Shown here in pieces: positions 26-34,353 of a stretch of DNA of 64,000 nt. The position numbers were made by a program, and so were the translations under genes. How positions within the stretch are numbered: the first letter of the stretch is position 1; the number at the start of each line of letters is the position of its first letter. Under the pieces are notes generated by a model. It was not told where the DNA came from. It saw only the letters and a list, made by a program, of their open reading frames with translations, and searched no databases. Source of the DNA: Patescibacteria group bacterium (GTDB lineage: Bacteria; Patescibacteriota; Microgenomatia; Levybacterales; UBA12049); assembly GCA_038062115.1 (NCBI GenBank), contig JBBTXS010000008.1:12484-76483 (forward strand), given 5' to 3'.

Positions 26-1363
26 ATGTTTACAAATAAAAAATCAGTCATTTTCATAACTAAATCTAAAATAACAGTTTCGGATGTAGTCCTTGGCGAC
101 AAGCCAAATGAAAAGATCATTGGCCAATTCGGTTGGACACCTTATACTTTAGATAATGTTCTATTACAAATCAAAAGAATTATCGATGGTACTATAAGAA
201 TACTTTTAAGCGAAGACTTTGTTTATGTAGTAAATTTGTCTTTGCCTTCAGGCTCAATCTTAAATAAAGACTTTGTTCTACAAAAAGCCCAAGAACTTAT
301 TCCCGAAAATCTCAGAGAAACAACATGGGATTTTAAAGAAATAGCAAGCCCATTACCCTCTTCTAGCAAACAGCTAATGACAACAATACAGGTGGTTGCT
401 GTAGTTAAAACTTTGTTTGAAGCATTAAGTAAATCAATTACAAAGGCAGAATTGCAAGTTGAGGCAATAGAGCCTTTGTCTTATGCTTTGGCTCGCTTTA
501 CCAAACAACAAGAAAAACCTTTCCTTTTTGTCTATGTAGATACGGAAACACTTTTAACTCTTGCTCAAAAAGAGGCAGTTTTGGCAACACAAAGGCTCAA
601 TAGTCTTACTCCAACAAACATAAATCAATTTATTATATTTGCAAAAGAGAAGTTTTTGGCAGAACCCCAAAATATAGTTTTTTGTGGAAATACCAACAAT
701 ATTGATTTAAAAGAATACGAGAATCTAAGCTTTAAAGCCGTAATCCAAGATATAAGTCCTGCAATATCTTTGTCTTATAAAGAGGATATTAAGGGTAAAG
801 ACGAAGATGTGCTAAATTTAGGATTATTAAAAATCTTGCACAAAGATAAAAATGAAATTTCAAACAACCTGCCAGCTAAAGCTCCTATACAAAAACATCA
901 TTCCCCAAATATACCTATAATTGCAATGGGTTTCTTCGTAGTGCTTGGGATTTTTGGAGTTTTGCTTATATACAACAACAATATGTCACTAAAAAACAAT
1001 AAGTTATCTCCTATTCCAACGTCTCTACCAACACTTTCTCCCACACCATTCGTAACACCAACTGCAAAAATTGATTTATCTAAATATAGTATTACAATAC
1101 TCAATGGAACTGGCAGGGCGAAAGAAGCAACAAATATAGAAAGTCTTTTAAAAGATAATGGTTTTAATGTAATAAAAACTGGAAACGCAGATAATTTTAA
1201 TTACGAAAAAACCGAAGTTAGTTTTAAAGAAAAAGTTCCAAATGAGTTCATCTTACTGCTTGACAAGTCCCTAAAAACTCTGTACGATTTTTCTATAGGC
1301 ACAAAATTAGAAGAAAAAGAAGATACTGACATCTTAATTATTATAGGTAAAAGCACTAAATAA
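26..1363 (+). CDS. Membrane protein with C-terminal LytR_C-type domain, possibly PilM-like pilus assembly protein
   Basis: 445-aa ORF from ATG 26. One central TM helix (IIAMGFFVVLGIFGVLLIY). C-terminal ITILNGTGRAKEATNIESLLKDNGFNVIKTGNADNFNYEKTEVSF fits the LytR C-terminal domain pattern. It ends 3 nt before a pilin gene, so the PilM-like role is contextual inference. Confidence 0.5.
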   Translation: MFTNKKSVIFITKSKITVSDVVLGDKPNEKIIGQFGWTPYTLDNVLLQIKRIIDGTIRILLSEDFVYVVNLSLPSGSILNKDFVLQKAQELIPENLRETTWDFKEIASPLPSSSKQLMTTIQVVAVVKTLFEALSKSITKAELQVEAIEPLSYALARFTKQQEKPFLFVYVDTETLLTLAQKEAVLATQRLNSLTPTNINQFIIFAKEKFLAEPQNIVFCGNTNNIDLKEYENLSFKAVIQDISPAISLSYKEDIKGKDEDVLNLGLLKILHKDKNEISNNLPAKAPIQKHHSPNIPIIAMGFFVVLGIFGVLLIYNNNMSLKNNKLSPIPTSLPTLSPTPFVTPTAKIDLSKYSITILNGTGRAKEATNIESLLKDNGFNVIKTGNADNFNYEKTEVSFKEKVPNEFILLLDKSLKTLYDFSIGTKLEEKEDTDILIIIGKSTK

Positions 1364-1366
1364 TAA

Positions 1367-1936
1367 ATGAAGAAATTATCAGTTCTCATCCGTCAGTTGA
1401 CGGATCAATTCTCAACTCGGAAGGGTTTTACCCTCATAGAGCTTTTAATAGTCATTACGATAATCGCTACATTAGCAGTTACAGTGTTTGTAGCTCTTAA
1501 TCCTGCGCAAAGGATCAAAGATGCAAAAGATGCAAGAAGAACTTCTGATATAGATTCTATTCTTACTGCTATTCATCAAGCGATCGTTGATAACAAAGGA
1601 AGCGTTCCTAGTAATTTACCAGCTAATCCTGGTGCAGGAAATCCACCTAACGAACGCCAATTGGGCACAGGGGATGCAACAGTAGCAGCAGGATGTGGTA
1701 CAGCCATAGCAACAAATGGATGCAATACGCCAACACTTACAGCCTGCGCAGATTTAATGACTGGAACAATAAATGTAAGTAAATACCTCAAGACTATGCC
1801 GATTGATCCATCTGGCGGAACAACGTACACCGCCGTAAAAACGGGATATAGTGTGGCGCGTGATGCTAACGATATAATTACTATAACAGCTTGCAATAAG
1901 GAGGGGACAGGAGCAAATATTCAAGCCTCAAGATAA
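1367..1936 (+). CDS. Type IV pilin / pseudopilin (prepilin-type N-terminal cleavage-methylation domain)
   Basis: 189 aa. Class III signal motif RKG|FTLIELLIVITIIATLAV (Gly-Phe cleavage site, Glu at +5, hydrophobic helix), followed by a Cys-containing globular part. Confidence 0.85.
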   Translation: MKKLSVLIRQLTDQFSTRKGFTLIELLIVITIIATLAVTVFVALNPAQRIKDAKDARRTSDIDSILTAIHQAIVDNKGSVPSNLPANPGAGNPPNERQLGTGDATVAAGCGTAIATNGCNTPTLTACADLMTGTINVSKYLKTMPIDPSGGTTYTAVKTGYSVARDANDIITITACNKEGTGANIQASR

Positions 1937-1941
1937 AATAC

Positions 1942-3231
1942 TTACTTATTATTTGCAATTACATTCCAAATATCATTATATTTTCCCTCATATCCAACCG
2001 CCCAGACTGCAACTCCACCTAAGTTCTGACTTTTTATAAATTCCATTTTTGCTCTTATTGACTTTTCATCTTCGTAATATATTTGTTTTATCGCTCCACT
2101 TTGTTCATATACTAACCATGGAGACATTGCCTTTTCGTCCCAATGCCTTACAATGTCTTTTCTGCCTCCCAAAAGCTCTTTTACTCGTTTGTAAGTTGCC
2201 AAAGCGCCACTATTAGGAACCACAATACTTTTATGTTTTCTATTTACAGTCTCCCACTCGTAACCATAAAATGGCACAGCTAAAATTACCTTGTCCATTG
2301 GCACGCGACCAACAAGAGAATTAATCGACTGTTTAATGCTATGTTCGTTTAACTCTGAATCCAAAGGAGCAACATGCCCAGCAACTAAAGAAGAGGGGGT
2401 ACGATAGTCATACGCCATAACAATTATTTGGTCTACCAACTCTCCTATCTTAACCATATCATACGCTTTATCAGATAACATTACAGTCGCATTTACATCA
2501 ATGCTAAGCAAATATTTTGGGTTTTCATTTTTAAGCGTTGTCGAAACATATTGCAAAAAGTCAGTCATGTATCTAACTGTTGGAAAATTAGAATCGGTAA
2601 AGTATTCAAAATCAAGATTTATACCGTCCAACTCATACTTTTTTAAAATATCAAGTGCGTATTTTGTAAATCGATTGGTTGATGTAGAATTACTTATTAG
2701 TTTATCTATACTTTCGTTGTCAAACATTTTAAAAGCAACTAACATTTTAGTTTTACTTTCTTGAGCCTCATTTTTAAGACGAGTAAAATAGTCAGATGTA
2801 AAATACTGCCATTCAAGAGTGGGCTCATTTTTCTCGTTAAACATAATTACTTCGCCATTGTCATTCACTCCAATACCAAAATAAATTATTTGAGTCATTG
2901 CTTTCGTATCAACCTTAATGTTTTGCGCAACCATCCAAGAAGGCAAAAAACCAATTACATGTCGGAAGTTTGTTTCCAAAGATTCGCTAAAGTATCTATT
3001 AGTACTCTCTGGCAATGCTTCTTTTCTTACTTTTTGAACTGGAGATATTAAAGAAGAATCATTAATCTTATCAGCGCTAATTAAGTATATTCCCCCAAAT
3101 ACAATAAAGAAAAAGATTGTTGTAATTAAATCTATCGCTATAATGTGTTTTTTGACAACGTTCTTAATTTTAAACAAAAATGGTTGATTTTTAAACTTGA
3201 TAAAAGCTTCATAAAGATTAGTGGGGTCCAT
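1942..3231 (-). CDS. Glycoside hydrolase family 18 (chitinase-like), N-terminal TM anchor
   Basis: GH18 signature LDGINLDFEY (DxxDxDxE with catalytic Glu, middle Asp replaced by Asn) and MAYDY motif. TM helix IIAIDLITTIFFFIVFGGIYLI. Start moved to ATG 3231 (MDPTNLYEAF) because the ORF-track start at 3285 would overlap the response-regulator gene by 44 nt. Confidence 0.75.
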   Translation of the reverse strand: MDPTNLYEAFIKFKNQPFLFKIKNVVKKHIIAIDLITTIFFFIVFGGIYLISADKINDSSLISPVQKVRKEALPESTNRYFSESLETNFRHVIGFLPSWMVAQNIKVDTKAMTQIIYFGIGVNDNGEVIMFNEKNEPTLEWQYFTSDYFTRLKNEAQESKTKMLVAFKMFDNESIDKLISNSTSTNRFTKYALDILKKYELDGINLDFEYFTDSNFPTVRYMTDFLQYVSTTLKNENPKYLLSIDVNATVMLSDKAYDMVKIGELVDQIIVMAYDYRTPSSLVAGHVAPLDSELNEHSIKQSINSLVGRVPMDKVILAVPFYGYEWETVNRKHKSIVVPNSGALATYKRVKELLGGRKDIVRHWDEKAMSPWLVYEQSGAIKQIYYEDEKSIRAKMEFIKSQNLGGVAVWAVGYEGKYNDIWNVIANNK

Positions 3232-3241
3232 GTTGTCAGAT

Positions 3242-3625
3242 TTATTTAGCTTCAATTGCCTCCAATATGCTTTTAATTTTATCAACTATAGTATCAGGAG
3301 TATTTGCGACTTTCTCAAGATACGCTTCCGCGCCAAATTCTAGTCCCTGTTTGACAATAATATCTTGATCCAAATTTGTAAGAAGCAACACTGGAACATT
3401 CTTTTTAAGACTATTCCCCTTTATTGCTTTTAATACATGTAAACCATTAATATCTGGAAGAACAATATCTAAAACTACCATATCATAAGTATTTTTATGA
3501 AACGCGTCGAGACCTTGCCCACCGGTAGGAAAACCGTCAACAGTAAACCCAGAAGCTTCTAGCTCCTCTTTATAAATTTCCCTTATATAGTCCTCGTCCT
3601 CAATAAGCAATATTTTTTTATTCAA
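3242..3625 (-). CDS. Receiver-only response regulator (CheY-like)
   Basis: 127 aa. KKILLIEDEDYIREIY acidic pocket, phospho-acceptor context MVVLDIVLPDINGL, conserved LLLTN and K-containing C-terminal part. No output domain. Confidence 0.85.
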   Translation of the reverse strand: MNKKILLIEDEDYIREIYKEELEASGFTVDGFPTGGQGLDAFHKNTYDMVVLDIVLPDINGLHVLKAIKGNSLKKNVPVLLLTNLDQDIIVKQGLEFGAEAYLEKVANTPDTIVDKIKSILEAIEAK

Positions 3626-3897: not shown

Positions 3898-3955
3898 TTT
3901 ATATAGTGTTTTGCAATGATTATTATTATATACTTATAATGACCTTAATTTCTTA

Positions 3956-5086
3956 ATGAAAATAAGACTAATCATCCTTGCGATCCTAATTTTGCCTTTA
4001 TTGATAACTATAAATAACTCTACATCTCATAAAAACATAGAGTCCTCCACTCGCCCAGTTACAGTAAACAACAAAAAAGTCTCAAGCGAAATTTCTGCAA
4101 TTGTAGAAACTAACAACCTTGATAAACAAGTAGCCCTCTACAAAAAATTAATCGCTAGGGTTGGACCAGAAGCTGCTCAAGAAGAACTTTTGTACTCAGG
4201 TTTATCTTTTGATGGACAAACTCACCTCCTCAATCATACGGTTGGGGATTATCTGTACGATAAATACAAAACTTCTGGTCTTGCTTTTTGTAAAGATTAC
4301 TTTTTATCTTCTTGCTACCATGGTTTTGTTATAAGAGCAGTGGCCGATGGAGGATTTGATGCGCTTAAAGAAGTTATGTCTGTCTGTTGGCAAAAAGGAG
4401 AACCTGTAGCAGTACAATGCTCTCATGCAATTGGACACGGGCTTTTAGCCTGGATTGGCTATGCCAATTTAACAAAAGCTTTAAATGATTGTGACAAGTT
4501 AAGCCAAGAGTCAAAAGATTTTCCGCTTTACAATTGTCACGACGGCGTATTTATGGAAAATATTTGGGCAGTTCACGAGAATGGTAAACTATCTAAAGAT
4601 AGTTGGTTAAGTGAAGATCCTGTATACCCTTGCAACGATCCAAGAATAGATAGTAAATATATTCAAGCCTGTTGGTCAAATCAACCCATGCGAATGTATC
4701 AAATGTTTAAGGCAGATCTTGGAAAAGTTGGAGAAGAGTGTCTAAAGCTTACTGATAACACATACAAAATTACATGCTTTGATGGTTTGGCTCGCCAAAT
4801 CCACCCTTTAACCAAAGGAAATGCTCAAGAAGTATTCAAACTTTGCTCTACTATGCCAAGCGTTTGGGTTGATCCTTGTATAACATCTATTGCAAAGGCT
4901 GCTTTTTCGGTTGGCGACACCACAATTCCATTCAAACTTTGCTCTCAAGTCCACGAAAACTCAAAAGCATCCTGTTTTGAAACTCTTGCAGATATTATAC
5001 AAGCTTATACAAGAAACAATCTTAAAGAACGAAAAACATTGTGCGACAAAATTCCTAATATTATCTTTAGACAAAAATGCACATAA
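3956..5086 (+). CDS. Secreted Cys/His-rich protein, one copy of an unassigned domain (CYHG / CxHGxGHG / GVFME / YPCN motifs)
   Basis: 376 aa. Signal anchor MKIRLIILAILILPLLI. Motifs SCYHGFV, QCSHAIGHGL, NCHDGVFMENIW, PVYPCN, then repeated Cys-pair units. Same motif order as two segments of the ORF at 5259..7778. Confidence 0.65.
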   Translation: MKIRLIILAILILPLLITINNSTSHKNIESSTRPVTVNNKKVSSEISAIVETNNLDKQVALYKKLIARVGPEAAQEELLYSGLSFDGQTHLLNHTVGDYLYDKYKTSGLAFCKDYFLSSCYHGFVIRAVADGGFDALKEVMSVCWQKGEPVAVQCSHAIGHGLLAWIGYANLTKALNDCDKLSQESKDFPLYNCHDGVFMENIWAVHENGKLSKDSWLSEDPVYPCNDPRIDSKYIQACWSNQPMRMYQMFKADLGKVGEECLKLTDNTYKITCFDGLARQIHPLTKGNAQEVFKLCSTMPSVWVDPCITSIAKAAFSVGDTTIPFKLCSQVHENSKASCFETLADIIQAYTRNNLKERKTLCDKIPNIIFRQKCT

Positions 5087-5258
5087 TTTTTACTTTAATT
5101 GGAGTTGTTGGAATTATTTTATGATGAGTTCTCGCTTGTTAAAGCGTAGTATAAGAGAAAGTTTTCTCCTTTGTTTCTTTTTGTGCACATATATAATATA
5201 TAACTGTACTTGTTCACTTTCTGAAGTTGGTTGTATTACGGCACGAAGGGTTGGTGGT

Positions 5259-7778
5259 TTAGATTACGCTTAGGCACCAGGATCGCCCTTGGGAATCAGG
5301 GATTTTTTTGCATTCTTTTTTTGCAACATCTTTACTATTATTCCAATCCAAAACTCCATTGCCAATCTGCTTGAAACAACTTTCTCTATTTTGAGGATCA
5401 GTGAGTCCGCAAAAATCAATCATTTTTTGCATATTTCCTACAAAACGATAAGATAGGGAAGATACAACACCCGCAACACAAATATTTTTAAAATTCTCCG
5501 AAGGCATAAAATCACAATCTTTTTTCATTGTTTCTAAAGACGAAGTAAAGCCAACTTGATTTGTACCTATGGTTCTAAAACACCGGTCTTGATATTTGTC
5601 GGGGATTTGCAGACAAAGGTTAGCAACTTTTTTCCAGTCTTGGTTAGAAATAATAGAAAAATAAGAACTCTGATATTGCCAGCAGAGGGATTGATATTTT
5701 TCCTCCAGAATATTGCATGGATAAAACGGATCATCGGGCTTAATATAGATGCTGGCATGGTCAAAAGAGGTAGAGGAGGAGGAGTTTTCCATAAATACGC
5801 CCGTATAACATCTTTCCTTATACTGCTGATTTCCAATAGTGTCGCAAAGTTTTAAAGACTCCTTGAGTTCCATTTCCGTTACAAACATTGCCGCATGTCC
5901 CATGCCATGAAGACACTCATTGAACTCAATGGGTTTTTGGTAATCGTTTTGTTTTCCGCAAATTTTGGCAAACTGATTATCTAAATTAAATCCAGTCTCA
6001 TTTGTCTTCTCTTTTAAATAAGCCTCCAGAGTTCCGTGATAACATCCTCCATGACAAGTTGAATCACACTGGGCATAAACTTTGGCAATATTATTTTGCA
6101 AGGCATACTCCAAGCGAGATAAATAATGAGTTACCTCGTGACAGCGAGCATAAACTTCTGGATATTCTTCATTCTCTTTAAAAACTTTAAGTGTTTTAGC
6201 CAAACCGAATTGGTTATACAATACATCTGCAGCCTTTTTATAGCATCCGTCGCGGCCATTTGTCTCAAAGCACTTTTTTAATTGAGCCCTGACATACAGA
6301 TTAGTGTCTTCATTTTCTTCTTTTGGGGCAAAATTAATTTGTACCTGCCTATTATATTCCTTAATGAGTCTATCTACATTTTGCAAACATTCCTGGCTTT
6401 TTTCAAACGCATTGCAAACTTGTTTTGATTTTTCAGACCAGCCGGGTATTTCTTGGAAAACCAACTCTCCTGCGGCAGCTTTTGCGCATTTATTAACATA
6501 TTCCGGTACCTCCATTTTTTGGCAGCCCGCAATTATTTGGCTAACAGCGCCTTTGGATGCAAGAGAAAAACCTAACGCGTCAAAACAACTCTCTTTGAAA
6601 GGTTTTGATTGAGAAGAAAGACAAATTTCAACCACTTCGTCAAATCCCATATTAAATCTACTCATTAAAAGAGAGGCCTGGTTTCTTCCGCAGGATGAAG
6701 AGTAAGTATAGCCAAACTCTTTTTCAAGCTGATTACAGGGATAAAGAGGGTCTTCTTTTTGGAAAAAACTTAAAGGTGCAGATCGTACAAATTCCATGAA
6801 TACCCCGTCAAAGCAGTATTCTTTGCCCGATGTCAGCTTTCTACATGAAACAAGCGCTTTTTTTAAATCAGATGTTGAATAATAACTTGCAACTCCATGT
6901 CCAATTCCGTGGATACAGCTTGCAACAGGGCCGCTCCCATCAGGGCCTAACTTTAAGCAGGCACTCTGCGCATCCAGCAGATAATCAAGATTCTTTGAAA
7001 AAGCCTTATCTAAAAATCCATGATAACAACCAAAAGCAAATTGAGCAGAGCAGTCTTTGATACCTTCAAATCCATTTTTTTCATATATTAAAAGTCCTGA
7101 AAGGTGAGCCAAGTCGTGAATGTTGCCAGAGGACCCCCCTTCTCCTTTGAAAACATCTTTTATATATTCCCAAGCTTTTGAAGCACCGTTAGCATGGGCA
7201 AGTTTCTCAAGTGCTTTAGATTGAATATCATAAGAAAGTTTTTTGAAGCTTTCTTTGCTAGGTAGTTGTAGTTGTCCGCTATCTGGCGGGTTTGATGTTT
7301 TTCTAAAATTGAAAAGGTTTTTTAATTTGGTAAATAAATTATTGACTGTGTCCTTAAACTTTGTAATAAAAGTATTTAAAGAAAGATTTTGTTTCATTTC
7401 TTTTTGTGAATCTTGTGCGCTAGAGATCTCTTCATTAATAACTGTTATAATCCCTCTCATGTGGGGAAAAAGGTGATCATGGTATTTCCATACTCCTACT
7501 TTTTTAGTCTTAAATGCCCAGGATTCTCCCGGCTCAATTGCTTTTCTGGGGTCAAACTCGGGATATATCTGATGAGTCGGATGGGTATTGCTGGCAGGCC
7601 ATCTTGACTTAGTGTCTTTATTTACAAAGATTATGCTTGAGTTTTGATCTATCGTCACCTCAGCAGGCATAAAACCATCAGGGATCATTTCTATAACCGA
7701 AACTTCTGAATGGGCAAAAACATTCTTAGGTGCAAAAAAAATTACAACAATTAAAAAGAACAAAAATAACTTGAACAT
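5259..7778 (-). CDS. Secreted cupredoxin-like domain protein with two copies of the Cys/His-rich domain
   Basis: 839 aa. Signal peptide MFKLFLFFLIVVIFFAPKNVFA. N-terminal beta domain has NTHPTHQIYP and WKYHDHLFPHMRGIITV, the same motifs as the 144-aa ORF at 45308..45742. Two repeats follow with GCYHGFL/GCYHGTL, SCIHGIGHGV/ECLHGMGHAA, YCFDGVFMEF/RCYTGVFMEN, PLYPCN/PFYPCN. Confidence 0.7.
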   Translation of the reverse strand: MFKLFLFFLIVVIFFAPKNVFAHSEVSVIEMIPDGFMPAEVTIDQNSSIIFVNKDTKSRWPASNTHPTHQIYPEFDPRKAIEPGESWAFKTKKVGVWKYHDHLFPHMRGIITVINEEISSAQDSQKEMKQNLSLNTFITKFKDTVNNLFTKLKNLFNFRKTSNPPDSGQLQLPSKESFKKLSYDIQSKALEKLAHANGASKAWEYIKDVFKGEGGSSGNIHDLAHLSGLLIYEKNGFEGIKDCSAQFAFGCYHGFLDKAFSKNLDYLLDAQSACLKLGPDGSGPVASCIHGIGHGVASYYSTSDLKKALVSCRKLTSGKEYCFDGVFMEFVRSAPLSFFQKEDPLYPCNQLEKEFGYTYSSSCGRNQASLLMSRFNMGFDEVVEICLSSQSKPFKESCFDALGFSLASKGAVSQIIAGCQKMEVPEYVNKCAKAAAGELVFQEIPGWSEKSKQVCNAFEKSQECLQNVDRLIKEYNRQVQINFAPKEENEDTNLYVRAQLKKCFETNGRDGCYKKAADVLYNQFGLAKTLKVFKENEEYPEVYARCHEVTHYLSRLEYALQNNIAKVYAQCDSTCHGGCYHGTLEAYLKEKTNETGFNLDNQFAKICGKQNDYQKPIEFNECLHGMGHAAMFVTEMELKESLKLCDTIGNQQYKERCYTGVFMENSSSSTSFDHASIYIKPDDPFYPCNILEEKYQSLCWQYQSSYFSIISNQDWKKVANLCLQIPDKYQDRCFRTIGTNQVGFTSSLETMKKDCDFMPSENFKNICVAGVVSSLSYRFVGNMQKMIDFCGLTDPQNRESCFKQIGNGVLDWNNSKDVAKKECKKIPDSQGRSWCLSVI

Positions 7779-7818
7779 GTTTACAATCTACTATTATACA
7801 AAATTAGGCAGAGGAAAG

Positions 7819-10650
7819 TTAAGGACTACAAGGTCTACGGATAAGAGTGCCCCACAATGTCTGTAGAAAGCCATGATCGCAAGTAGCAACACCTTGCACT
7901 GGCGGGGTTGCGTAGCCAGATGGACTGCCGTAGGATGGGGTTCCGTAACTTGGTGTTCCATAGCTTTCTGAAGGAGTTCCATACGAAGGTGTGCCATACG
8001 ATGGTGTTCCATAGGATGATGGTGTTCCGTAGGCAGGGGTTCCATAGCTAGGACTGGGATAGCTGTAGCCAGTACTCGGTGTGGGATAGGCATAGGATGG
8101 GCTTGGATAGCTTGGTGTCCCATATGTTGGCGAAGGATAGGAATAACTAGTTCCAGGCGTTGGATAAGCATAGCCAGTAGATGGAGAAGGATAGCTGGTA
8201 TTTGAAGGTGTTGGATAGTAATAGGCTGTACCTGGTGATGGATATGTATAACTTGAACCTGGGGTTGGATATGAATAGCCTGTACCAGGAGTTGGGTATG
8301 GATAGGTCGTTGTTGTCCCCGGTGTAGGATAGGAATAAGGCGTTGGATAAGAAGGAGTTGTGTAATTCGGGTTTGACGGCGTGTAATAAGTCGGCGTGTT
8401 GTAAGGAGAATAATAAGGAGAAGTATAGGTAGTTGAAGGCGTAGAATAATCTGAAGTTGGCGATGTATAACCGCTTCCTGGAGTATAGTAGGGACTTGTG
8501 TATGTGCCGCCAGGCGTATAGTAGGATGGTGAGTAGTAGCTAGGTGTTGAATAGTTTGGAGTTACGTAAGGTGTGTAATAGCTTGGGCTGGTGTAATTTG
8601 ATCCCTCCGGAGGAGTGTAATATTGAGGGGTAGAGTAAGGTGTGTAGTAGTAAGGCGTTGGATAAAATCCGGGTGTGTAATAGGATGGTGTCGGATAAGA
8701 AGCCGGCGAATAGTAGCTGGGAGAAGTATAATTGCTGCTTAATGGTGGAGTTGGATAGTTTGGAGTGGTATAGGCAATAGGCGATGTATAGGTAGGAGGT
8801 GTTGGATATGTACCCGGTGTGTAATAATTTGGTGTTGAATAAGGAGGAGGTGGTGTGTAATAGCTTGGGCTAGTATAGGTTGAGCCTATCGGAGGAGTAT
8901 AGTAGGTAGGTGTTGTATAAACAGGCGGCGTGAAGTAAACAGGAGTTGTATAGCCGCCGCCAGTGTATGGCGTGTAATATTGAGGAGTTACGTATGGTGG
9001 AGGCGTTGAATAAGAAGGCGTTGTGTAATTTGAGCCAACGGGAGGAGTATAATAATAGGGTGTTGTATATTGGGGAGGAGTGTAATAGTAAGGTGTTGTA
9101 TAGCCGCTTCCCACAGGAGGTGTGTAATAAGTTGGGCTTGCATAAGTCGGAGTTGGATACTCACCTGTTGGAGTAGAATAATTGCTCCATGGAGTATAGT
9201 AGTTAGGCGTTGTATAGTTTGATCCTATCGGAGGTGTGTAGTAACTTGGGGTAGAGTACATACCAGGCGTATAGTATTGAGGTGTTGTATACGTCGAACC
9301 AACTGGCGGAGTGAAGTAAATAGGAGTTGTGTAGAAGTTAGTTGTAGGTGGACTGGCATAGATTACGTCTGCAGGAGGTGTGTAGTAGGTATCAGGAACA
9401 TAAATATCCAAGGGTCTTGGCGACCTGGAATTAAATCCTTCACATTGACCAGGATTTTCTTTACAATAGTCATAACAAGCACCAGGTGAATCACAATTGC
9501 CCATCTCCGGCTTTGGCTCAAATTTAACGTCAGTTCCGGGAGTGTAGTAGAGGTAAGGAGTATAGTCATCGGTTGGCCGTGAGGCGCTGGCATCAAAACC
9601 CTGACAGGAATTTGGATTAGCTTTACAGTAGTCGTAACATTCGCCTGGTGTTTTACAATTGCCCATCTCCGGTCTTGGTTCAAAATAGGCGCTTGCTATT
9701 TCCGGTGTAATTCCAAGAGGAAATGGACCATCGTTAATACAAGTATTACCATTCCAAAGTCCTCCAGCTTCTGCGCAATAGACTGCCAGTTTGTAATCCG
9801 GTATCTTTGTGCAAGAACCTCCGGGCCCGTGAACCTCATTTTGGCCGCAAGCGATAGGAACATAAACACCATTAGATCCAGGAGAGTAGCTTCGACATTC
9901 TTTAGGATTTTGTTCGCAGTAAGTTCGGCAGCCTGCTTCACTAGTACATCCACCAGGACCAGTATAGGGTCCGCTGGAAACAGTACAAAGTGTAAAATTA
10001 GCTGGATCAGAGCAGAAAGCACTGCAAGTGCCGGGAGTTTGGCAGCCGCCAGGACCCTCAACAACTTTCCCACCCAAAAGTCCTATTCTATCCGCAAAAC
10101 TACTACACTTATCAGCATTTGCAGGATTATCACAGAAAGTTGAACAAGTTGCGGCTGAATCACAACCTAGAACTTCTTTAGCAATAGTTAAGTATTCTGG
10201 TTTATCAGGTTCGCCAACATAACCTCCCGGAATATCACTCCTTTTGGCAAACGTACTACACGCATCAAAATTTGCTTCTTGTGAACAAAAATTCACACAA
10301 CCATCTCGGGAATTACATCCTAGCTCGCTTTGGGCATCCTGATAGAATTCATCCGTTGCATAAGTTGTCACATCATCTTGATAAAAACCGTTTTTCTTGG
10401 CAAAACTGCTGCAGCTGTTATAATTAACAGGATCTTCGCAATAATTTGTACATTCTTTTAAGTTATTACAGTCACCCAACTCCTTAACAGGAAAGTTAAG
10501 GTTAAAACTTCCCCCGGTGGCGGTGGTTGGTTGGACTGTTGGGCTTTGTGAGAAAACAGAAGTTGTTACAAAAAACAATACAAACACTGCCGCTAACGTC
10601 AAAATCAATGTTCTGATAGAATTTAATATTAAAGTTGTATTTATTGTCAT
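7819..10650 (-). CDS. Large surface protein: seven CX5CX3CX6/8C modules plus a ~500-aa Tyr/Thr/Pro/Ser-rich repeat region
   Basis: 943 aa. N-terminal hydrophobic signal/anchor (LILTLAAVFVLFFVTTSVFS). Modules such as CNNLKECTNYCEDPVNYNSC, CNSRDGCVNFCSQEANFDAC, CKTPGECYDYCKANPNSC. From about residue 410 it is nearly pure YYTPP / YTTP / SYGTP low complexity. Confidence 0.75.
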   Translation of the reverse strand: MTINTTLILNSIRTLILTLAAVFVLFFVTTSVFSQSPTVQPTTATGGSFNLNFPVKELGDCNNLKECTNYCEDPVNYNSCSSFAKKNGFYQDDVTTYATDEFYQDAQSELGCNSRDGCVNFCSQEANFDACSTFAKRSDIPGGYVGEPDKPEYLTIAKEVLGCDSAATCSTFCDNPANADKCSSFADRIGLLGGKVVEGPGGCQTPGTCSAFCSDPANFTLCTVSSGPYTGPGGCTSEAGCRTYCEQNPKECRSYSPGSNGVYVPIACGQNEVHGPGGSCTKIPDYKLAVYCAEAGGLWNGNTCINDGPFPLGITPEIASAYFEPRPEMGNCKTPGECYDYCKANPNSCQGFDASASRPTDDYTPYLYYTPGTDVKFEPKPEMGNCDSPGACYDYCKENPGQCEGFNSRSPRPLDIYVPDTYYTPPADVIYASPPTTNFYTTPIYFTPPVGSTYTTPQYYTPGMYSTPSYYTPPIGSNYTTPNYYTPWSNYSTPTGEYPTPTYASPTYYTPPVGSGYTTPYYYTPPQYTTPYYYTPPVGSNYTTPSYSTPPPYVTPQYYTPYTGGGYTTPVYFTPPVYTTPTYYTPPIGSTYTSPSYYTPPPPYSTPNYYTPGTYPTPPTYTSPIAYTTPNYPTPPLSSNYTSPSYYSPASYPTPSYYTPGFYPTPYYYTPYSTPQYYTPPEGSNYTSPSYYTPYVTPNYSTPSYYSPSYYTPGGTYTSPYYTPGSGYTSPTSDYSTPSTTYTSPYYSPYNTPTYYTPSNPNYTTPSYPTPYSYPTPGTTTTYPYPTPGTGYSYPTPGSSYTYPSPGTAYYYPTPSNTSYPSPSTGYAYPTPGTSYSYPSPTYGTPSYPSPSYAYPTPSTGYSYPSPSYGTPAYGTPSSYGTPSYGTPSYGTPSESYGTPSYGTPSYGSPSGYATPPVQGVATCDHGFLQTLWGTLIRRPCSP

Positions 10651-11269: not shown

Positions 11270-14200
11270 ATGGCACGTATTTTAACTTATCATAATCCCA
11301 CTCCAAAGGAACTAAAGCAAAACCCTTTAAAATCTCTCTGGGAACAGTTTAAGTCTCTTGATAAATTTACAAGAGCCTTTATTATTGTAGTTTTAGCTAT
11401 TATTGTTGTAACTCCATATATTATTTCTCAATATCAAATATTTAATAGTCGTGGGGAGATTGACTTAACTAAAAGCGGAACTGTTGATGAAAATGGTATA
11501 TTTAACGAATATTTTGTCTGGAAAGGCGATCATGGCGCGATTATCGGAGGAGGTACTTCCAATACGGTATGGTGGAATGCTCACAATTGGGATGCTCGAG
11601 GGGATACTGCCCACAATGCGTTTGATGGAGGACCGAAAGGAGGTCAGGGAGGGGACCATATTGATGTCCATGTAGGCTCTCTAGATCTCACCGATGGAAA
11701 GCGGCTTAACAACAAATACGTGATCGGAGGAGACGGAGGTCCAGGAGTTGGAACCATGCATTTGGATATGGAGACGATATCGAGTGCTCGATTGAGAAAT
11801 CCCATGCTCATTTCTGGTGGCAGTCCAGGGATTGTAGAATTCAGAGCACCAACTTCTTTGACCAGTGGTCATTGGTGGGAGGTTGCGATAGCGCCAGCGA
11901 ATAAACCTGTGACAGGAGCAGAATTTACTGCTGCACCTTCGACTTCCGATGACATTGATGGACAGCAAGGACCAGGACATCGTCCTGCGGAAGATTCGAT
12001 CAACTTCGTTGTGTTTGGAAGAGACGATGTGCCCTGTACTAGTGGTTGGGGAATCAACACCGGAATCACAAAATCGATTGGGGGAAGTACAACAGACTCT
12101 CTCGGACCCATTATTACAACTGGAGCTAATCCTACAACGAGTGCGGACAAACTTTTTGCTTGGCGTCTTGAGTACTATCCCGACAAAATGAAACTCTTTG
12201 CAGATTTGAATGAAGATGGCACAAAAGAACTTCTCCACACGTTTAATGTTTCAGTTCCATGGAGCGAAGTAAATGTGTACCTTATGGGCGCTGCATATCA
12301 GGCGTATCATCATCCGCAAGGATTAGGCGACTGCCATAATCTAGGCCAAATCCGAGAGCTTCCATGGAAAGAAGTACGAATTGGTCCAGTAAAATACGCA
12401 AAGACAAGGGCTTATCCAAAGGAACAAGGTACCGATCGGGTTCAAAAGAAGACGGGATGGATGGGATTTGATATGCGAGACAGCCAGCGATTTGGCGTGG
12501 TAAATGGTATTGAACAGCCAAATGCTGCTTCCTACGACGAATGGAAATCTGCTGCGTTTTGTAGTATGGACACATGGTTCTGCGACAATCCAGTAACTAC
12601 CAAAACATTAACCTTCAATATTCCTGCAGAAGATGCAAGTGGCATTACTCACGCACAATTTATCTATGATATTCGATACAATGGAACCGCCACTATTGAA
12701 GTTAATGGAAAAGCCGTTCCTGGGTCTCTTCTTACGCAATCAAGCGTACCAGGACACGGAACCAATGGAGAGAAACATTGGGCGCAAAGATCAAAAGAGG
12801 TTGATCTTTCTTTCTTTCAGGCAGGGACGAATACGCTTGTCGTAAAAATGTCAGGGAGCGTGATGATGGATCGGCTTCAATTTGAATTTGGGTATGGGAA
12901 AGCTGCAGTCGTAACAGGATCTCCAACACCAACACCTACTCCAGTCTCTACACCAACACCCACTACAAAACTTACTCCAACACCGACTTCTCCGCCACCT
13001 ACCTCTCCACCTGGGAAAATCGTGTGTTCGGTTTCTGCTTTAGATCAACCAAAGGCAGTACCTCCTATGTGTAATTTGAATAAAGGGGAAGCAGCTCAAG
13101 TAACCCTTAAGGATGGAAGTAAACGGACGGTAACACTCGTTGATGTGCAGAAAGCAATTACTGAAAGCATTGTTGCAGACCAGGGACCATGTAACTTTAC
13201 CTTTCTTGCGAAGGCAACAGTGAATGTAGACGGAGAGCTTCGTGAGATGGGCGTTGCGATGGACCAGCCATATACGGTTGCAAAAGGGGTACGTATGTAT
13301 CCAATGAGATCCAAGATCTTTAATTCCGACAGTTGCTGGTCAGCGACATGGAATTCTGATCTTACCTTGATGTTCACCGATGCTTCTGCGCCGGCATTTA
13401 GTACCTCTGGGTATCACTACCCTCTTGAACAATTATGGGGACTCAACGAACACGCAGGCCGTGAGGCATATTCTGGTCGCCATCATGACGGCTATGATAT
13501 TGGCAGTCCGAATCAAGTGAGCCCCCCAGCAAAACTCTTAGCGCACATAGATGGCAAGATTTGGAGTTTTGGGCCAGTCTATGGTGGAGCAGAAGCAACA
13601 AATAATCGAATTGACCTTGCTCCAGCAGGTAATCAATGGGCAGACACGGGAGCCAGCTATTTCCACGCAGCCTCTCTAGCGTCTGGGGTATCGGTAGGGA
13701 GTTTGGTAACAAAAGGACAGTGGATTGGAAATGCAGGGCTTATTGACTCTCAAGGATATCCTCATCTTCATTGGGTTGGGGGTGAAGGATTGTTGATCAA
13801 CGAGTTTCCGTTCTTGAAAGAGAGCTATAACGCCACGATGATAACAAAATCCAAGTATCAAGGATATCCCAAAGACTGGCTTCTCATTGGTCCATTCTCT
13901 GACATAAATACAAATCGTTTATTCAATGATCATCTCGCTGGTCAGGAAACTACGATACAGCCATCAGAGGGTACAGTGACAAACGGAAAAACATGGAAAG
14001 GATACGACAATCTGGTAGTAGGTGCTGTTGATTTTGCGAGTGCGTTGAGCCCAGCCCCCTACAGTGGGTACGCAGGAAAAGTAAAGGACAATTACAAGAA
14101 CAGCATTGGGTATGCGCATATCTATATTAATTCTCCTATAGGGCAATCTGTTCAGCTTTGGTTAGGATACAATGATGGACTTCGTGCATGGTTGAATGGA

Positions 14201-33693: not shown

Positions 33694-33707
33694 CACAATC
33701 TTATTGT

Positions 33708-33756
33708 GTCATTCCCGCGAAACTTGTCCTCGAGAAATCGAGGAGCGGGAATCCAG
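33708..33756. repeat. Palindromic element (GTCATTCCCGCG...CGGGAATCCAG variant)
   Basis: Has the ends of the GTCATTCCCGCGAAAGCGGGAATCC hairpin family, with an inserted inner hairpin CCTCGAGAAATCGAGG. Lies between the methylase stop and the GIY-YIG gene. Confidence 0.7.
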
Positions 33757-33765
33757 AAAAATCAT

Positions 33766-34119
33766 ATGAAAAACTATTGTGTCTATATATTAGCAAGCAA
33801 AAGAAATGGAACGCTCTATATCGGTGTTACCAACAATTTAGAGAGAAGAATATATGAACATAAAAATAATATCATTAAAGGCTTTACTGCAAAATATAAC
33901 GTTCATCAGCTTGTTTATTTCGAGCAAACAGTAGATATTAATTCAGCTTTGCAAAGAGAAAAGCAGCTTAAGAAATGGAATCGGAAATGGAAACTTGCTT
34001 TAATCGAAAAAGAAAACCCCAATTGGGAGGATTTATCGGAGAGCTGGATGCCCGATCAGAGCTTGCCCCGTACGCGATACGGGGTCGGGCATGACAAAAA
34101 GGAAGCGGGGATTTATTAG
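33766..34119 (+). CDS. GIY-YIG nuclease family protein (small stand-alone type)
   Basis: YCVYILASKRNGTLYIGVTNNLERRIYEHK carries the GIY and YIG beta-strands, Arg and Glu. Start set at ATG 33766 (MKNYCVYIL) because the upstream part of the ORF-track model translates the palindromic repeat. The last ~20 codons also run into a palindromic element. Confidence 0.8.
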   Translation: MKNYCVYILASKRNGTLYIGVTNNLERRIYEHKNNIIKGFTAKYNVHQLVYFEQTVDINSALQREKQLKKWNRKWKLALIEKENPNWEDLSESWMPDQSLPRTRYGVGHDKKEAGIY

Positions 34120-34130
34120 TAGCTCTTGGT

Positions 34131-34321
34131 GTCATTCCCGCGAAAGCGGGAATCCAGAGAAAGATTACGACTGGATTCCCAATCAAGTTGGGAATGACAA
34201 AGTGATAGAAGGATAAATTAAACGATTTAGTTTTTGGAGGTAGCGAGGCTGTCATTCCCGCGAAAGCGGGAATCCAGAGAAAGAAGACAACTGGATTCCC
34301 AATCAAGTTGGGAATGACAAA
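34131..34321. repeat. Two tandem copies (120-bp period) of a double-hairpin palindromic element
   Basis: GTCATTCCCGCGAAAGCGGGAATCCAGAGAAAGA..AC..CTGGATTCCCAATCAAGTTGGGAATGACAAA occurs at 34131..34201 and 34251..34321. Each copy is followed by a copy of the 18-nt methylase 3' end. Confidence 0.85.
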
Positions 34322-34353
34322 GAGAGAGCGAGGGTTTAGTTTTTGGAGGTAAT

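What the first reader, a model, noticed from the sequence alone, without database searches (positions are those of the whole stretch)
3956..7778. Unassigned secreted Cys/His-rich domain present three times in two convergent genes, once fused to a cupredoxin-like domain
The 376-aa ORF and two consecutive segments of the 839-aa ORF share one ordered motif string. The motifs are SCYHGFV / GCYHGFL / GCYHGTL, then QCSHAIGHGL / SCIHGIGHGV / ECLHGMGHAA, then NCHDGVFMENIW / YCFDGVFMEFV / RCYTGVFMENSS, then PVYPCN / PLYPCN / PFYPCN. After these come four or five units, each with a Cys pair ending in CF..LG-like sequence (ITCFDGLARQI, ESCFDALGFSL, DRCFRTIGTNQ, ESCFKQIGNGV). I cannot place this domain in any family I know. 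Both proteins have signal sequences. In the larger protein the domain follows a cupredoxin-like fold with HPTH and YHDHL motifs but no type-1 copper Cys. Invariant Cys and His in an extracytoplasmic setting suggest a metal-binding or disulfide redox module.
Basis: seen in the sequence. Interest (0 to 1): 0.55.

Follow-up and report, generated by a model that had tools for sequence, protein, structure and literature searches.

The report
Uncharacterised secreted His/Cys helical-repeat system
Two neighbouring genes of a Patescibacteria (CPR) genome encode three copies of a large, unnamed, cell-surface helical-repeat domain with invariant cysteine pairs and a five-histidine cluster, plus a cysteine-less cupredoxin; the same four parts recur in other lineages fused in different ways, so they probably form one metal-handling system whose function nobody has tested.

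Summary
ORF 3956-5086(+) (376 aa) and two consecutive segments of ORF 5259-7778(-) (839 aa) are homologous (BLASTP 1e-27 and 3e-17), and every quoted motif is present. The domain ("FAM") has no match in Pfam, NCBIfam, PDB sequences or PDB/BFVD structures. It is nonetheless a very large family: 4,047 clusters at 50% identity, mainly Patescibacteria, with remote members in Gemmatimonadota (including cultured Longimicrobium terrae) and Nitrospirota.

AlphaFold gives a confident all-alpha repeat fold. Sixteen Cys form eight i/i+8-15 pairs, one per ~34-aa repeat, as in the disulfide-bridged Sel1-like proteins Hcp and COA7. Across 590 domain instances H90, H94, H122, H157, H161 and F199-M200-E201 are 97-100% conserved.

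New findings:
- The three copies are orthologous subtypes A, B and C. Lineages fuse them differently (Cup-A-B + C; Cup-A, B, C; Cup-A-C + B), which indicates one four-module system.
- The cupredoxin has Asp in place of the type-1 Cys. In forms with a cleaved signal peptide the mature N-terminus is His (108/111).
- Non-CPR relatives carry a ~66-aa His-rich insert beside the conserved cluster.

Best reading: structural disulfides plus a transition-metal site. The metal and the function remain untested.

The parts
3911..3940 (+). Promoter-like site (TTGCAA-18-TATAAT) 16 bp upstream of the p1 start codon
   Evidence: Consensus scan, 10 of 12 matches. This is a consensus match only, not evidence of function.
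3956..5086 (+). p1: 376-aa protein, the subtype-C FAM module (the most conserved subtype)
   Evidence: ORF. 100% identical to NCBI MAG protein AAB600_01675, Patescibacteria group bacterium. Best match of all 'C' genes in related loci, 277-450 bits.
3956..4018 (+). p1 N-terminal hydrophobic helix (aa 1-21): signal anchor or signal peptide
   Evidence: Kyte-Doolittle 3.29 over LIILAILILPLLITI, with no other TM-like segment. AF2 predicts helix 2-21, followed by a linker at 21-39 with pLDDT below 50.
4076..5083 (+). FAM-C domain (aa 41-376): all-alpha repeat fold with 8 Cys pairs
   Evidence: AF2 pLDDT 87.5, pTM 0.80, 18 helices. All 16 Cys are invariant in 30 homologues. Internal repeat confirmed.
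4223..4558 (+). Conserved His5-Met-Glu constellation of p1: H90, H94 (HLLNH), H122 (CYHG), H157, H161 (CSHAIGH), M200, E201 (GVFME)
   Evidence: 98-100% conserved over 590 domain instances. The residues sit in sequence register at +2/+6 from the second Cys of repeats 1-4. Coordinates.
5259..7778 (-). p2: 839-aa protein = signal peptide + cupredoxin + FAM-A + FAM-B
   Evidence: ORF. Homologues of 780-866 aa with the same architecture occur across Microgenomatia. Module assignment.
7713..7778 (-). p2 signal peptide (aa 1-22), predicted cleavage VFA|HSE, leaving His23 as the mature N-terminus
   Evidence: (V/I/A/S)-x-A followed by His in 108 of 111 full-length homologues. Also present in Cup-A-C forms.
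7434..7712 (-). Cys-less, His-rich cupredoxin domain (aa 23-115). Invariant residues, mature numbering: H1, H44-P-T-H47, H78-D79-H80, P83-H84
   Evidence: AF2 pLDDT 84. Foldseek TM 0.63-0.76 to plastocyanin, amicyanin, B. anthracis Cupredoxin_1 (4hcf Cu-bound, 4hcg Zn-bound) and EfeO 7wgu. Profile alignment to amicyanin places D79 at the Cys92 position. Invariant columns.
6279..7268 (-). FAM-A module (aa 171-500): H221/H225, C251-H253, C288-H290-H294, C322...M328-E329, PLYPC348
   Evidence: HMM hit 182-479, E 5e-38. BLASTP to p1 at 1e-27. Motif coordinates. Subtype A always follows Cup in other genomes.
5262..6278 (-). FAM-B module (aa 501-839): H547/H551, C579-H581, C622-H624-H628, C657...M663-E664, PFYPC688
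   Evidence: HMM hit 568-837, E 3e-29. BLASTP to p1 at 3e-17. Orthologous to stand-alone 'B' genes elsewhere.
7793..7822 (-). Promoter-like site (TTAACT-18-TATAAT) in the 40-bp gap upstream of p2
   Evidence: Consensus scan, 10 of 12 matches. Consensus match only.
7819..10650 (-). Associated upstream gene: 943-aa secreted protein with eight 4-Cys modules and a ~500-aa Tyr/Pro/Thr-rich region (Y 14.5%, P 16.2%, T 15.3%). Possible partner or substrate
   Evidence: A Tyr/Pro/Thr-rich protein lies next to the ~800-aa Cup-FAM-FAM gene in 7 loci (WIN, L003, L005, L010, L018, L023, L025). The similarity is largely compositional, because the Cys modules are shared only with L003. No Pfam hit.

Best explanation
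p1 and p2 together encode a conserved four-module extracytoplasmic system of Patescibacteria: one Cys-less, His-rich cupredoxin (Cup) and three paralogous ~330-aa modules (FAM-A, FAM-B, FAM-C). Each FAM module is an all-alpha repeat domain of ~34-aa helix-turn-helix units. Each unit is stapled by one structural disulfide, as in the disulfide-bridged Sel1-like proteins Hcp and COA7. On its first four repeats the module carries an invariant set of five His plus Met-Glu (H90, H94, H122, H157, H161, M200, E201 in p1). I infer that this set is a transition-metal site, or two adjacent sites: 3 His, and 2 His + Met/Glu. The Cup domain has lost the type-1 copper Cys and instead offers HPTH, HDH and, in secreted forms, an N-terminal His. 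It is inferred to bind a type-2-like copper or another divalent metal. The most likely role is metal capture, buffering or relay, possibly with redox conversion, at the cell surface. The architecture is analogous to EfeO (Cup + all-alpha metal-binding domain, with Cup-less paralogues). What is shown: homology, family size, fold class, residue conservation, the subtype structure and the alternative fusions. What is inferred: disulfide formation, metal binding, the identity of the metal, and physical interaction of the modules.
For: - Homology of the three copies.
- Confident all-alpha model. Cupredoxin model and structural matches.
- Near-absolute conservation of 5 His + F-M-E and of the Cys pairs across 590 instances.
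- One Cys pair per repeat at the inter-helix turn. Pairwise co-loss of Cys: C112/C120 in 2 of 3 cases, C155 with C144 in 3 of 3, C262/C274 in 1 of 1. 16 Cys is the modal count. DsbA-like genes lie next to the arrays in L011, L020 and L021.
- Single N-terminal hydrophobic segment in both proteins; lipoprotein signals in Longimicrobium relatives.
- Alternative fusions of orthologous modules: [Cup-A-B]+[C], [Cup-A][B][C], [Cup-A-C]+[B]. 135 of 390 proteins surveyed carry the Cup motif.
- A His-rich insert (median 66 aa, 17.5% His) sits in the loop directly after FMEN in the Gemmatimonadota clade, against ~20 aa in CPR.
- The type-1 Cys is replaced by an invariant Asp flanked by invariant His.
- Mature N-terminal His in 108 of 111 homologues. 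An N-terminal His is a general metal chelator (PMC12537917). N-terminal His + HxH on a cupredoxin forms the PmoB CuB site (PMC12576850).
- EfeO precedent for Cup + helical metal domain, including Cup-less forms (PMC9174327; Foldseek hit 7wgu).
Against: - There is no experimental or coordinate-level evidence. The tools gave no access to model coordinates, so neither S-S distances nor clustering of the His side chains could be measured.
- The covariation test for in-register stacking of the ligand-bearing helices was inconclusive and points to a more compact fold than a simple solenoid.
- The His-rich insert is poor in Met (1.5%), so copper specifically is not indicated.
- The N-terminal His is absent from the membrane-anchored ~450-aa Cup-A forms.
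- No metal transporter, chaperone or regulator is a conserved neighbour.
- Subtype C has many further invariant polar residues (D196, N202, H207, W240, N242, Q243, R280). That fits a substrate-binding enzyme better than a simple metal buffer.
Confidence: 0.45

Rival explanations
1. FAM, at least the highly conserved subtype C, is a metal-dependent enzyme such as an oxidase, monooxygenase, lyase or hydrolase. It would act on cell-envelope or host-surface polymers, or on the adjacent Tyr-rich protein. Cup would act as electron or metal donor, and A/B as accessory or degenerate paralogues.
For: - Subtype C is 46-74% identical across deep CPR classes and has 66 invariant columns, including many polar residues beyond the His set.
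- There are rare fusions to GH3 (P0247), CE4 polysaccharide deacetylase (P0357) and FG-GAP (P0336).
- Window neighbours are GH18 and a GH5/M23/dockerin protein.
- A Tyr/Pro/Thr-rich protein lies adjacent in 7 loci.
- The ligand inventory (3 His, and 2 His + Met) equals that of non-coupled binuclear copper monooxygenases (my own knowledge; not tested).
- Covariation hints at a closed, pocket-forming fold.
Against: - No structural or sequence similarity to any known enzyme.
- The fusions are rare: 3 of about 390 proteins.
- Subtypes A and B keep only the His/Met/Glu and Cys, not the other polar residues.
- Tandem expansion to 9 paralogues (L030) is more typical of binding proteins.
Confidence: 0.25
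2. FAM binds haem or another tetrapyrrole through His/His or His/Met axial ligation. It would work like the disulfide-bridged Sel1-like protein COA7 and serve in haem scavenging or extracytoplasmic electron transfer.
For: - COA7 has the same repeat and disulfide geometry (30-36-aa alpha/alpha repeats, Cys spacing 8-11) and binds haem by His/Met despite resembling no known haem protein (PMC8892353).
- FAM has invariant His and Met.
- In L. terrae the gene lies 147 bp downstream of a DyP-type (haem) peroxidase gene and near hemA and cytochrome c assembly genes.
Against: - The DyP adjacency is seen only in L048/L049 and L037, not in the other Longimicrobium or any CPR locus.
- Five invariant His plus Glu is more than haem ligation needs.
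- His-rich loops and the cupredoxin fusion point to free metal ions.
- No sequence match to COA7 or Hcp, and these are not among the top 50 Foldseek hits.
Confidence: 0.1
3. FAM is a non-metal ligand-binding or adhesion scaffold, like ARM/TPR/SLR repeat proteins. The His/Glu/Asn residues would contact a peptide, glycan or anionic polymer on the CPR cell's own surface or on its host.
For: - The only structural matches are ARM/HEAT/TPR/Sel1 repeat proteins.
- Paralogue expansion in tandem arrays.
- Cell-surface location; giant multi-copy proteins with up to 7 copies; FG-GAP fusion.
Against: - Binding scaffolds diversify their ligand-contact residues. Here the same five His + Met-Glu are 98-100% invariant in all subtypes and phyla.
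- His-rich insert at the same site.
- Recurrent cupredoxin fusion.
Confidence: 0.12
4. The Cys pairs form a thiol-disulfide redox relay, or they are Cu(I)-thiolate storage sites as in Csp proteins.
For: - 16 invariant Cys per module.
- DsbA-like neighbours in a few loci.
- COA7 has disulfide reductase activity, although through its haem (PMC8892353).
Against: - No CxxC motif and no thioredoxin fold.
- Cys spacing is 8-15, with one pair per repeat at the helix-turn-helix junction, the structural pattern of Hcp and COA7.
- The compartment is oxidising.
- Pairwise co-loss.
- The Cys are not arranged along a helical core as in Csp (inference).
Confidence: 0.03

Closest known systems
Disulfide-bridged Sel1-like repeat proteins (Helicobacter HcpB/HcpC; mitochondrial COA7)
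   Same: Extracytoplasmic or IMS all-alpha solenoid of ~30-36-aa helix-turn-helix repeats, each bridged by one disulfide with Cys spacing 8-11 (PMC8892353). FAM has repeats of ~30-42 aa and Cys spacing 8-15. COA7 binds a cofactor through His/Met and works in a copper-delivery pathway.
   Different: No Sel1 (or any) Pfam match at E<=1 in 30 members. No PDB sequence hit. Hcp and COA7 are not among the top 50 Foldseek hits. FAM has 8-9 units against 4-7, and an invariant His5-Met-Glu set that Hcp and COA7 lack. Covariation suggests a more compact, closed arrangement.
EfeO / EfeM of the EfeUOB iron-uptake system (Cup + peptidase-M75/imelysin-like domain)
   Same: Extracytoplasmic protein with an N-terminal cupredoxin that is not a classical blue-copper site, followed by an all-alpha metal-binding domain. 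It exists both as Cup-containing and Cup-less forms (PMC9174327), like Cup-A versus stand-alone B and C. The EfeO Cup domain is a structural match (7wgu, TM 0.69).
   Different: FAM is not M75: no Pfam hit and no HxxE motif. No EfeU permease is seen among the neighbours. A DyP (EfeB-like) neighbour occurs only in two Longimicrobium species. There are three paralogous helical modules instead of one.
Histidine-brace copper sites (PmoB/AmoB CuB; LPMO; CopC; YcnI)
   Same: The mature protein is predicted to begin with His right after the signal-peptidase site, on a beta-sandwich domain. An invariant H-x-H (H78-D-H80) recalls PmoB His137/His139 acting with N-terminal His33 (PMC12576850). An N-terminal His is a general metal chelator (PMC12537917).
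   Different: This rests on sequence only: cleavage and coordination are untested. The N-terminal His is missing in the membrane-anchored Cup-A forms. PmoB, LPMO and CopC are not among the top 50 Foldseek hits, which are plastocyanin, amicyanin and Cupredoxin_1.
Type-1 (blue) cupredoxins: amicyanin, plastocyanin; Pfam Cupredoxin_1 (PF13473)
   Same: Same fold (TM 0.63-0.76). Profile E 5e-5 to amicyanin, with the His53 ligand position conserved. Homologues carry PF13473.
   Different: The Cys92 ligand is replaced by an invariant Asp, the His95 position is Phe, and the Met98 position is variable. It cannot be a blue-copper electron carrier. The window protein scores just below the Pfam gathering threshold.
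ARM/HEAT repeat proteins
   Same: Best Foldseek matches (probability 0.99); generic alpha-solenoid local geometry.
   Different: E >= 4e-3, TM ~0.2, rmsd 17-21 A. No Pfam ARM or HEAT hit. Those proteins are cytoplasmic and have no disulfides.

Membership tests
Cupredoxin fold / Pfam Cupredoxin_1 (PF13473) | Greek-key beta-sandwich superimposable on known cupredoxins | tested here: met
   AF2 model with 8 strands, pLDDT 84. Foldseek E 3e-7, TM 0.63-0.76 to 5fc9, 4hcf, amicyanin and plastocyanin.
Cupredoxin fold / Pfam Cupredoxin_1 (PF13473) | Score above the Pfam gathering threshold | tested here: inconclusive
   The window protein scores 25.6 bits against GA 27. Most homologues carry a precomputed PF13473 hit.
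Type-1 blue copper proteins | His-Cys-His-Met ligand set | tested here: not met
   Profile alignment to amicyanin: Cys92 -> invariant Asp, His95 -> Phe, Met98 -> variable.
Sel1-like repeat (SLR) / Hcp / COA7 | Match to the Sel1 repeat profile (PF08238) | tested here: not met
   No Sel1 hit at E<=1 in any of 30 members or in p1/p2.
Sel1-like repeat (SLR) / Hcp / COA7 | Alpha/alpha repeats of ~30-36 aa, each with an intra-repeat disulfide | tested here: inconclusive
   The repeat period and Cys-pair positions fit, and co-loss supports pairing.
Sel1-like repeat (SLR) / Hcp / COA7 | Structural superposition on HcpB, HcpC or COA7 | tested here: inconclusive
   These are not among the 50 best PDB Foldseek hits, which are all ARM/HEAT with TM ~0.2. 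Sel1 proteins appear only at E > 0.07 in BFVD.
EfeO (Cup + M75 imelysin-like) | C-terminal Peptidase_M75/imelysin domain with HxxE motif | tested here: not met
   No Pfam hit of any kind to the helical domain.
EfeO (Cup + M75 imelysin-like) | Operon with EfeU permease and EfeB DyP peroxidase | tested here: not met
   No such neighbours in 30 CPR loci. A DyP_N neighbour occurs only in L048/L049 and L037.
Histidine-brace copper proteins | His as the first residue of the mature protein | tested here: met
   (V/I/A/S)-x-A|H in 108 of 111 Cup-A-B homologues and in 7 of 9 long fused forms. The cleavage itself is predicted, not shown. The feature is absent in the anchored Cup-A forms.
Histidine-brace copper proteins | Cu held by the N-terminal amine + imidazole and a second His in T-shaped geometry | not testable with these tools
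   Needs model coordinates with metal, or EPR or crystallography.
   No CxxC motif; Cys spacing is 8-15. The model is all-alpha. No thioredoxin-family Pfam hit.
ARM/HEAT repeat proteins | Profile match and global structural superposition | tested here: not met
   No Pfam hit. Foldseek TM 0.18-0.26, E >= 4e-3.

The most novel reading that the evidence does not exclude
FAM is a new class of metalloprotein fold: a disulfide-stapled alpha-repeat carrying two neighbouring metal sites, one of 3 His (H90/H94/H122) and one of 2 His + Met/Glu (H157/H161/M200/E201). That is the ligand inventory of non-coupled binuclear copper monooxygenases. Together with a histidine-brace cupredoxin it would form a Patescibacteria-wide extracellular copper oxidase system. 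That system would oxidatively modify the adjacent Tyr/Pro/Thr-rich surface protein (Tyr to DOPA or dityrosine cross-linking) or host cell-wall polymers, which would contribute to episymbiont attachment.
Probability: 0.1. Interest if true: 0.85.

Novelty: new variant of a known kind. Interest (0 to 1): 0.6.

Why it matters
Patescibacteria have tiny genomes, and most of their surface proteins have no known function. This system takes about 3.6 kb of coding sequence. It is conserved across several CPR classes and is represented by more than 4,000 clusters at 50% identity, yet it appears in no domain database. Its signature is unusually clear: five invariant His plus Met-Glu in every copy, eight Cys pairs, and a re-engineered cupredoxin. 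The alternative fusions predict that the four modules form a complex, which is directly testable. If metal binding is confirmed, this would define a new extracytoplasmic metal-binding fold and shed light on how ultra-small episymbionts handle copper, iron or zinc at their surface. A relative in the cultured Longimicrobium terrae offers a genetically and biochemically accessible entry point.

Tried and rejected
- **Profile and structure searches.** Pfam and NCBIfam on both proteins, on all 30 alignment members and on remote relatives found nothing for FAM. PDB sequence searches with single sequences and with the profile found nothing. Foldseek against PDB and BFVD gave only generic alpha-repeats.
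- **Conserved operon partners.** Across 47 loci the only recurring neighbours are paralogues, a Lipoprotein_15 (PF03640) protein in 7 loci, DsbA-like genes in 3 loci and a Tyr/Pro/Thr-rich protein in 7 loci. No transporter or regulator recurs.
- **DyP-peroxidase (EfeB-like) adjacency in L. terrae.** It looked promising but is not conserved, so I rejected it as strong evidence.
- **Copper specificity from His/Met-rich inserts.** Two examples (L041, L. terrae) are Met-rich, but across 72 proteins Met is only 1.5%, so I downgraded this to 'transition metal'.
- **Mean-field DCA as a substitute for the missing model coordinates.** The first run was dominated by gap artefacts. The filtered runs were inconclusive for in-register stacking and are confounded by the A/B/C subfamilies.
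- **N-terminal His brace as a universal feature.** Rejected, because it is absent in the anchored Cup-A forms.
- **Csp-like Cu(I)-thiolate storage and Trx-like redox roles for the Cys.** Rejected on Cys spacing and position.
- **Literature.** Searches for PF03640 and for Patescibacteria + cupredoxin gave nothing relevant.

Full report
**1. Observation**

The window carries a 376-aa ORF at 3956-5086 (+) (p1) and a convergent 839-aa ORF at 5259-7778 (-) (p2). BLASTP aligns p1 87-353 with p2 218-470 (32% identity, E 1e-27) and p1 120-375 with p2 579-835 (26%, E 3e-17). A three-way alignment shows the shared string HxxxH, CYHG, CxHxxGH, CxxGVFME, DPxYPC and then further Cys pairs. A family HMM finds exactly these three copies and no other in the 64 kb.

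p1 has 16 Cys arranged as eight pairs: 112/120, 144/155, 179/194, 226/239, 262/274, 297/308, 329/340 and 363/375. The pairs recur about every 34 residues.

**2. Database status**

The helical domain ("FAM") has no hit in Pfam or NCBIfam for p1 or p2, for any of 30 diverse homologues, or for remote relatives. It has no hit among PDB sequences, either with single sequences or with the profile. The only Pfam signal is a sub-threshold Cupredoxin_1 match at p2 7-113 (25.6 bits against a gathering score of 27). Most p2 homologues carry that domain in precomputed annotation. Two literature searches found no description of the family.

**3. Family size and spread**

- p1 is identical to a 'hypothetical protein' of a Patescibacteria MAG.
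- A profile search of 1.84 billion representatives finds 4,047 clusters at E<=1e-3 and 2,526 at E<=1e-10. These include proteins with up to seven copies.
- Species-representative genomes place close relatives in Daviesbacteria, Levybacteria, Nomurabacteria, Kaiserbacteria, Doudnabacteria and Saccharimonadia. Remote relatives at 21-32% identity occur in Longimicrobium and other Gemmatimonadota and in Nitrospirota.
- The Gemmatimonadota clade alone has more than 248 members. It includes the cultured Longimicrobium terrae and tandem triplets of genes.
- The window itself is ordinary chromosomal DNA, with RecA, FtsK, EF-G, RpoC and TsaD.

**4. Fold**

AlphaFold2 with a 30-sequence alignment gives pLDDT 87.5 and pTM 0.80. 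The model has an N-terminal helix (2-21), a disordered linker (21-39) and then 17 helices. Foldseek finds only generic ARM/HEAT/TPR/Sel1 solenoids (E >= 4e-3, TM ~0.2) in PDB and BFVD.

In the C-terminal half each unit is a short helix ending in a Cys, followed by a longer helix with a Cys about six residues in. Units 254-320 and 321-376 are significant internal repeats (hhalign 96.6%, E 6e-10).

The Cys pairs therefore flank each helix-turn-helix junction. This is the geometry of the structural disulfides in HcpB, HcpC and COA7, which have 30-36-residue repeats and Cys spacing of 8-11 (PMC8892353). Several observations support pairing:
- Cys losses tend to be pairwise (C112/C120, C144/C155, C262/C274), and 16 Cys is the modal count.
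- Both proteins are predicted to be extracytoplasmic.
- DsbA-like genes lie next to the arrays in three loci.

I could not measure S-S distances because the model coordinates are not exposed.

**5. The conserved polar constellation**

Over 590 domain instances from all subtypes and phyla:

| Residue(s) | Conservation |
|---|---|
| H90 | 98% |
| H94 | 100% |
| H122 | 99% |
| H157 | 100% |
| H161 | 100% |
| F199 / M200 / E201 | 97 / 99 / 98% |
| G160, G197 | ~100% |
| 13 of the 14 Cys in pairs 1-7 | 97-100% |
| C144 | 91% |
| D196, N202, H207, N242, R280 | variable outside subtype C |

The last Cys pair (C363/C375) is present in only 55-63% of instances, because many hits are truncated there.

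When each repeat is anchored on its second Cys, the invariant residues fall in sequence register:
- Position +2: H90, H122, H157, D196.
- Position +6: H94, (I126), H161, M200, with E201 at +7.

Whether these residues cluster in space is an inference. A mean-field DCA test was inconclusive. A few couplings link equivalent positions of adjacent units (F134-Y169, I203-R246, L265-P301). The strongest inter-helix couplings, however, join units 2-6, 4-6 and 3-7. That suggests a compact, closed arrangement, with the caveat that the A/B/C subfamily structure confounds the analysis.

**6. Evidence for a metal**

- In the Gemmatimonadota clade the loop directly after FMEN is expanded to a median of 66 residues with 17.5% His, with motifs such as 'DAHAGHG' and 'EHAGHDMP'. 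In CPR subtype C the same loop is about 20 residues. Met is generally low, so this points to transition-metal binding in general and not to copper specifically.
- 135 of about 390 surveyed family proteins carry the cupredoxin motif.
- The cupredoxin model (pLDDT 84) superimposes on plastocyanin, amicyanin, B. anthracis Cupredoxin_1 (solved with Cu and with Zn) and EfeO, with TM 0.63-0.76.
- In the profile alignment to amicyanin the His53 ligand is kept, Cys92 is an invariant Asp flanked by invariant His (H78-D79-H80), and the Met98 position is variable. This is not a blue-copper site.
- In 108 of 111 full-length Cup-A-B homologues, and in most Cup-A-C forms, a canonical signal-peptidase site is followed immediately by His. 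The mature protein would therefore start with His. An N-terminal His is a recognised general metal chelator (PMC12537917). Together with an HxH motif on a cupredoxin it forms the PmoB CuB site (PMC12576850). This feature is absent in the membrane-anchored ~450-aa Cup-A forms, so it is specific to certain clades.

**7. System architecture (new)**

Scoring every family gene in 30 CPR loci against p2 171-500 (A), p2 501-839 (B) and p1 (C) shows three orthologous subtypes. A always follows Cup. C is the most conserved, at 277-450 bits.

| Arrangement | Seen in |
|---|---|
| [Cup-A-B] + [C] | window, L003 |
| [Cup-A] [B] [C], co-directional | L007, L012, L015, L017 |
| [A] [B] [C], co-directional, no Cup motif detected | L020, L021 |
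| [A] [B] ... [C], with two other genes between B and C | L011 |
| [Cup-A-C] + [B] | L005, L028 |
| [Cup-A-C] | L006, L010, L018, L023, L025 |
| A-C without a detected Cup motif | L009 |
| [Cup-A], divergently transcribed from [C] | L014, L022 |
| [A] (no Cup motif), divergently transcribed from [C] | L016 |
| [Cup-A] [C], co-directional | L026, L027 |

These alternative fusions of the same orthologous modules are a Rosetta-stone signal that Cup, A, B and C act together. Arrays can expand to nine paralogues (L030).

**8. Context**

- No transporter or regulator is a conserved neighbour.
- A Tyr/Pro/Thr-rich secreted protein lies next to the ~800-aa fused gene in seven loci. In the window it is at 7819-10650, with 14.5% Tyr and eight 4-Cys modules. 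The similarity among these proteins is largely compositional.
- A Lipoprotein_15 (PF03640) protein recurs in seven loci.
- Rare fusions join FAM to GH3 + HEAT, to a CE4 deacetylase and to FG-GAP repeats.
- In L. terrae a DyP-type peroxidase gene lies 147 bp upstream, but this adjacency is not conserved.

**9. Interpretation**

Shown: a very large, unannotated, extracytoplasmic all-alpha repeat family with invariant Cys pairs and an invariant His5-Met-Glu set, organised as a four-module system with a Cys-less cupredoxin.

Inferred (overall confidence 0.45): the Cys pairs are structural disulfides. The His5-Met-Glu set is one or two transition-metal sites. The system captures, buffers or relays metal, possibly with redox conversion, at the cell surface. 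It would be an architectural analogue of EfeO and EfeM (PMC9174327).

Rivals:
- A metal-dependent enzyme acting on envelope or host polymers, or on the Tyr-rich neighbour (0.25).
- COA7-like haem binding (0.10).
- A non-metal binding scaffold (0.12).
- A thiol redox or Cu-thiolate role for the Cys (0.03).

**10. Novelty and verdict**

The fold class (a disulfide-stapled alpha/alpha repeat) and the architectural logic (a cupredoxin plus a helical metal domain) have precedents. The family, its His5-Met-Glu signature and the A/B/C/Cup system are undescribed. I rate it a new variant of a known kind, with interest 0.6.

Noticed in passing
window 7819-10650 (-): 943-aa secreted protein with eight tandem 4-Cys modules (C-x5-C-x3-C-x8/9-C, e.g. 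'CNNLKECTNYCEDPVNYNSC') followed by ~500 aa of Tyr/Pro/Thr/Ser-rich low-complexity repeats ('YYTPPxGSxYTTP'); 14.5% Tyr. It has no Pfam hit. This stretch also shows strong positive GC skew (0.37). Similar Tyr-rich proteins sit next to Cup-FAM-FAM genes in six other loci.
   Followed up: partly
window 11270-16192 (+): 1,640-aa protein combining a weak M23 peptidase match, a GH5 cellulase domain, Pro/Thr linkers and a C-terminal dockerin. This is an unusual multi-enzyme surface protein for a CPR genome.
   Followed up: no
window 1942-3625 (-): A GH18 (chitinase-like) gene at 1942-3285 overlaps by 44 nt the upstream stand-alone response-regulator receiver gene at 3242-3625, which suggests translational coupling.
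   Followed up: no
window 1367-1936 (+) and 26-1363 (+): A type IV pilin-like protein (N_methyl motif) directly follows a LytR_C-domain membrane protein. PilB, PilC and pilin genes also flank FAM arrays in L012, L015, L020 and L021.
   Followed up: no
L007, L008, L011, L013, L015, L021, L024 (e.g. L007:9170-9679 -): A ~165-aa secreted Lipoprotein_15 (PF03640, function unknown) protein with a conserved Cys pair lies immediately downstream of, and convergent with, the subtype-C gene in seven loci.
   Followed up: partly
L023 (CP066684.1, 731220-748209): A complete Cup-A-C gene with its Tyr-rich neighbour sits on a chromosome labelled Candidatus Aenigmatarchaeota (DPANN archaeon). Several other loci are labelled 'uncultured archaeon' or 'Gammaproteobacteria'. 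The cause could be mislabelled bins or transfer between episymbiont lineages. I did not verify this.
   Followed up: no
L048:8421-11455 (Longimicrobium terrae JACHIA010000001.1): A 477-aa DyP_N-domain protein and a conserved 148-aa protein lie just upstream of the FAM lipoprotein gene. hemA, siroheme-synthase-like and cytochrome c assembly genes follow within 4 kb. The DyP link is seen in only two species.
   Followed up: yes
L030:1479-11291: Nine consecutive co-directional FAM paralogues in a Kaiserbacteria MAG, the largest array seen.
   Followed up: no
window 31747-36293 (+): Type I restriction-modification genes (HsdM-like N6_Mtase with an HSDR_N domain, then HsdS) lie downstream of recA.
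   Followed up: no
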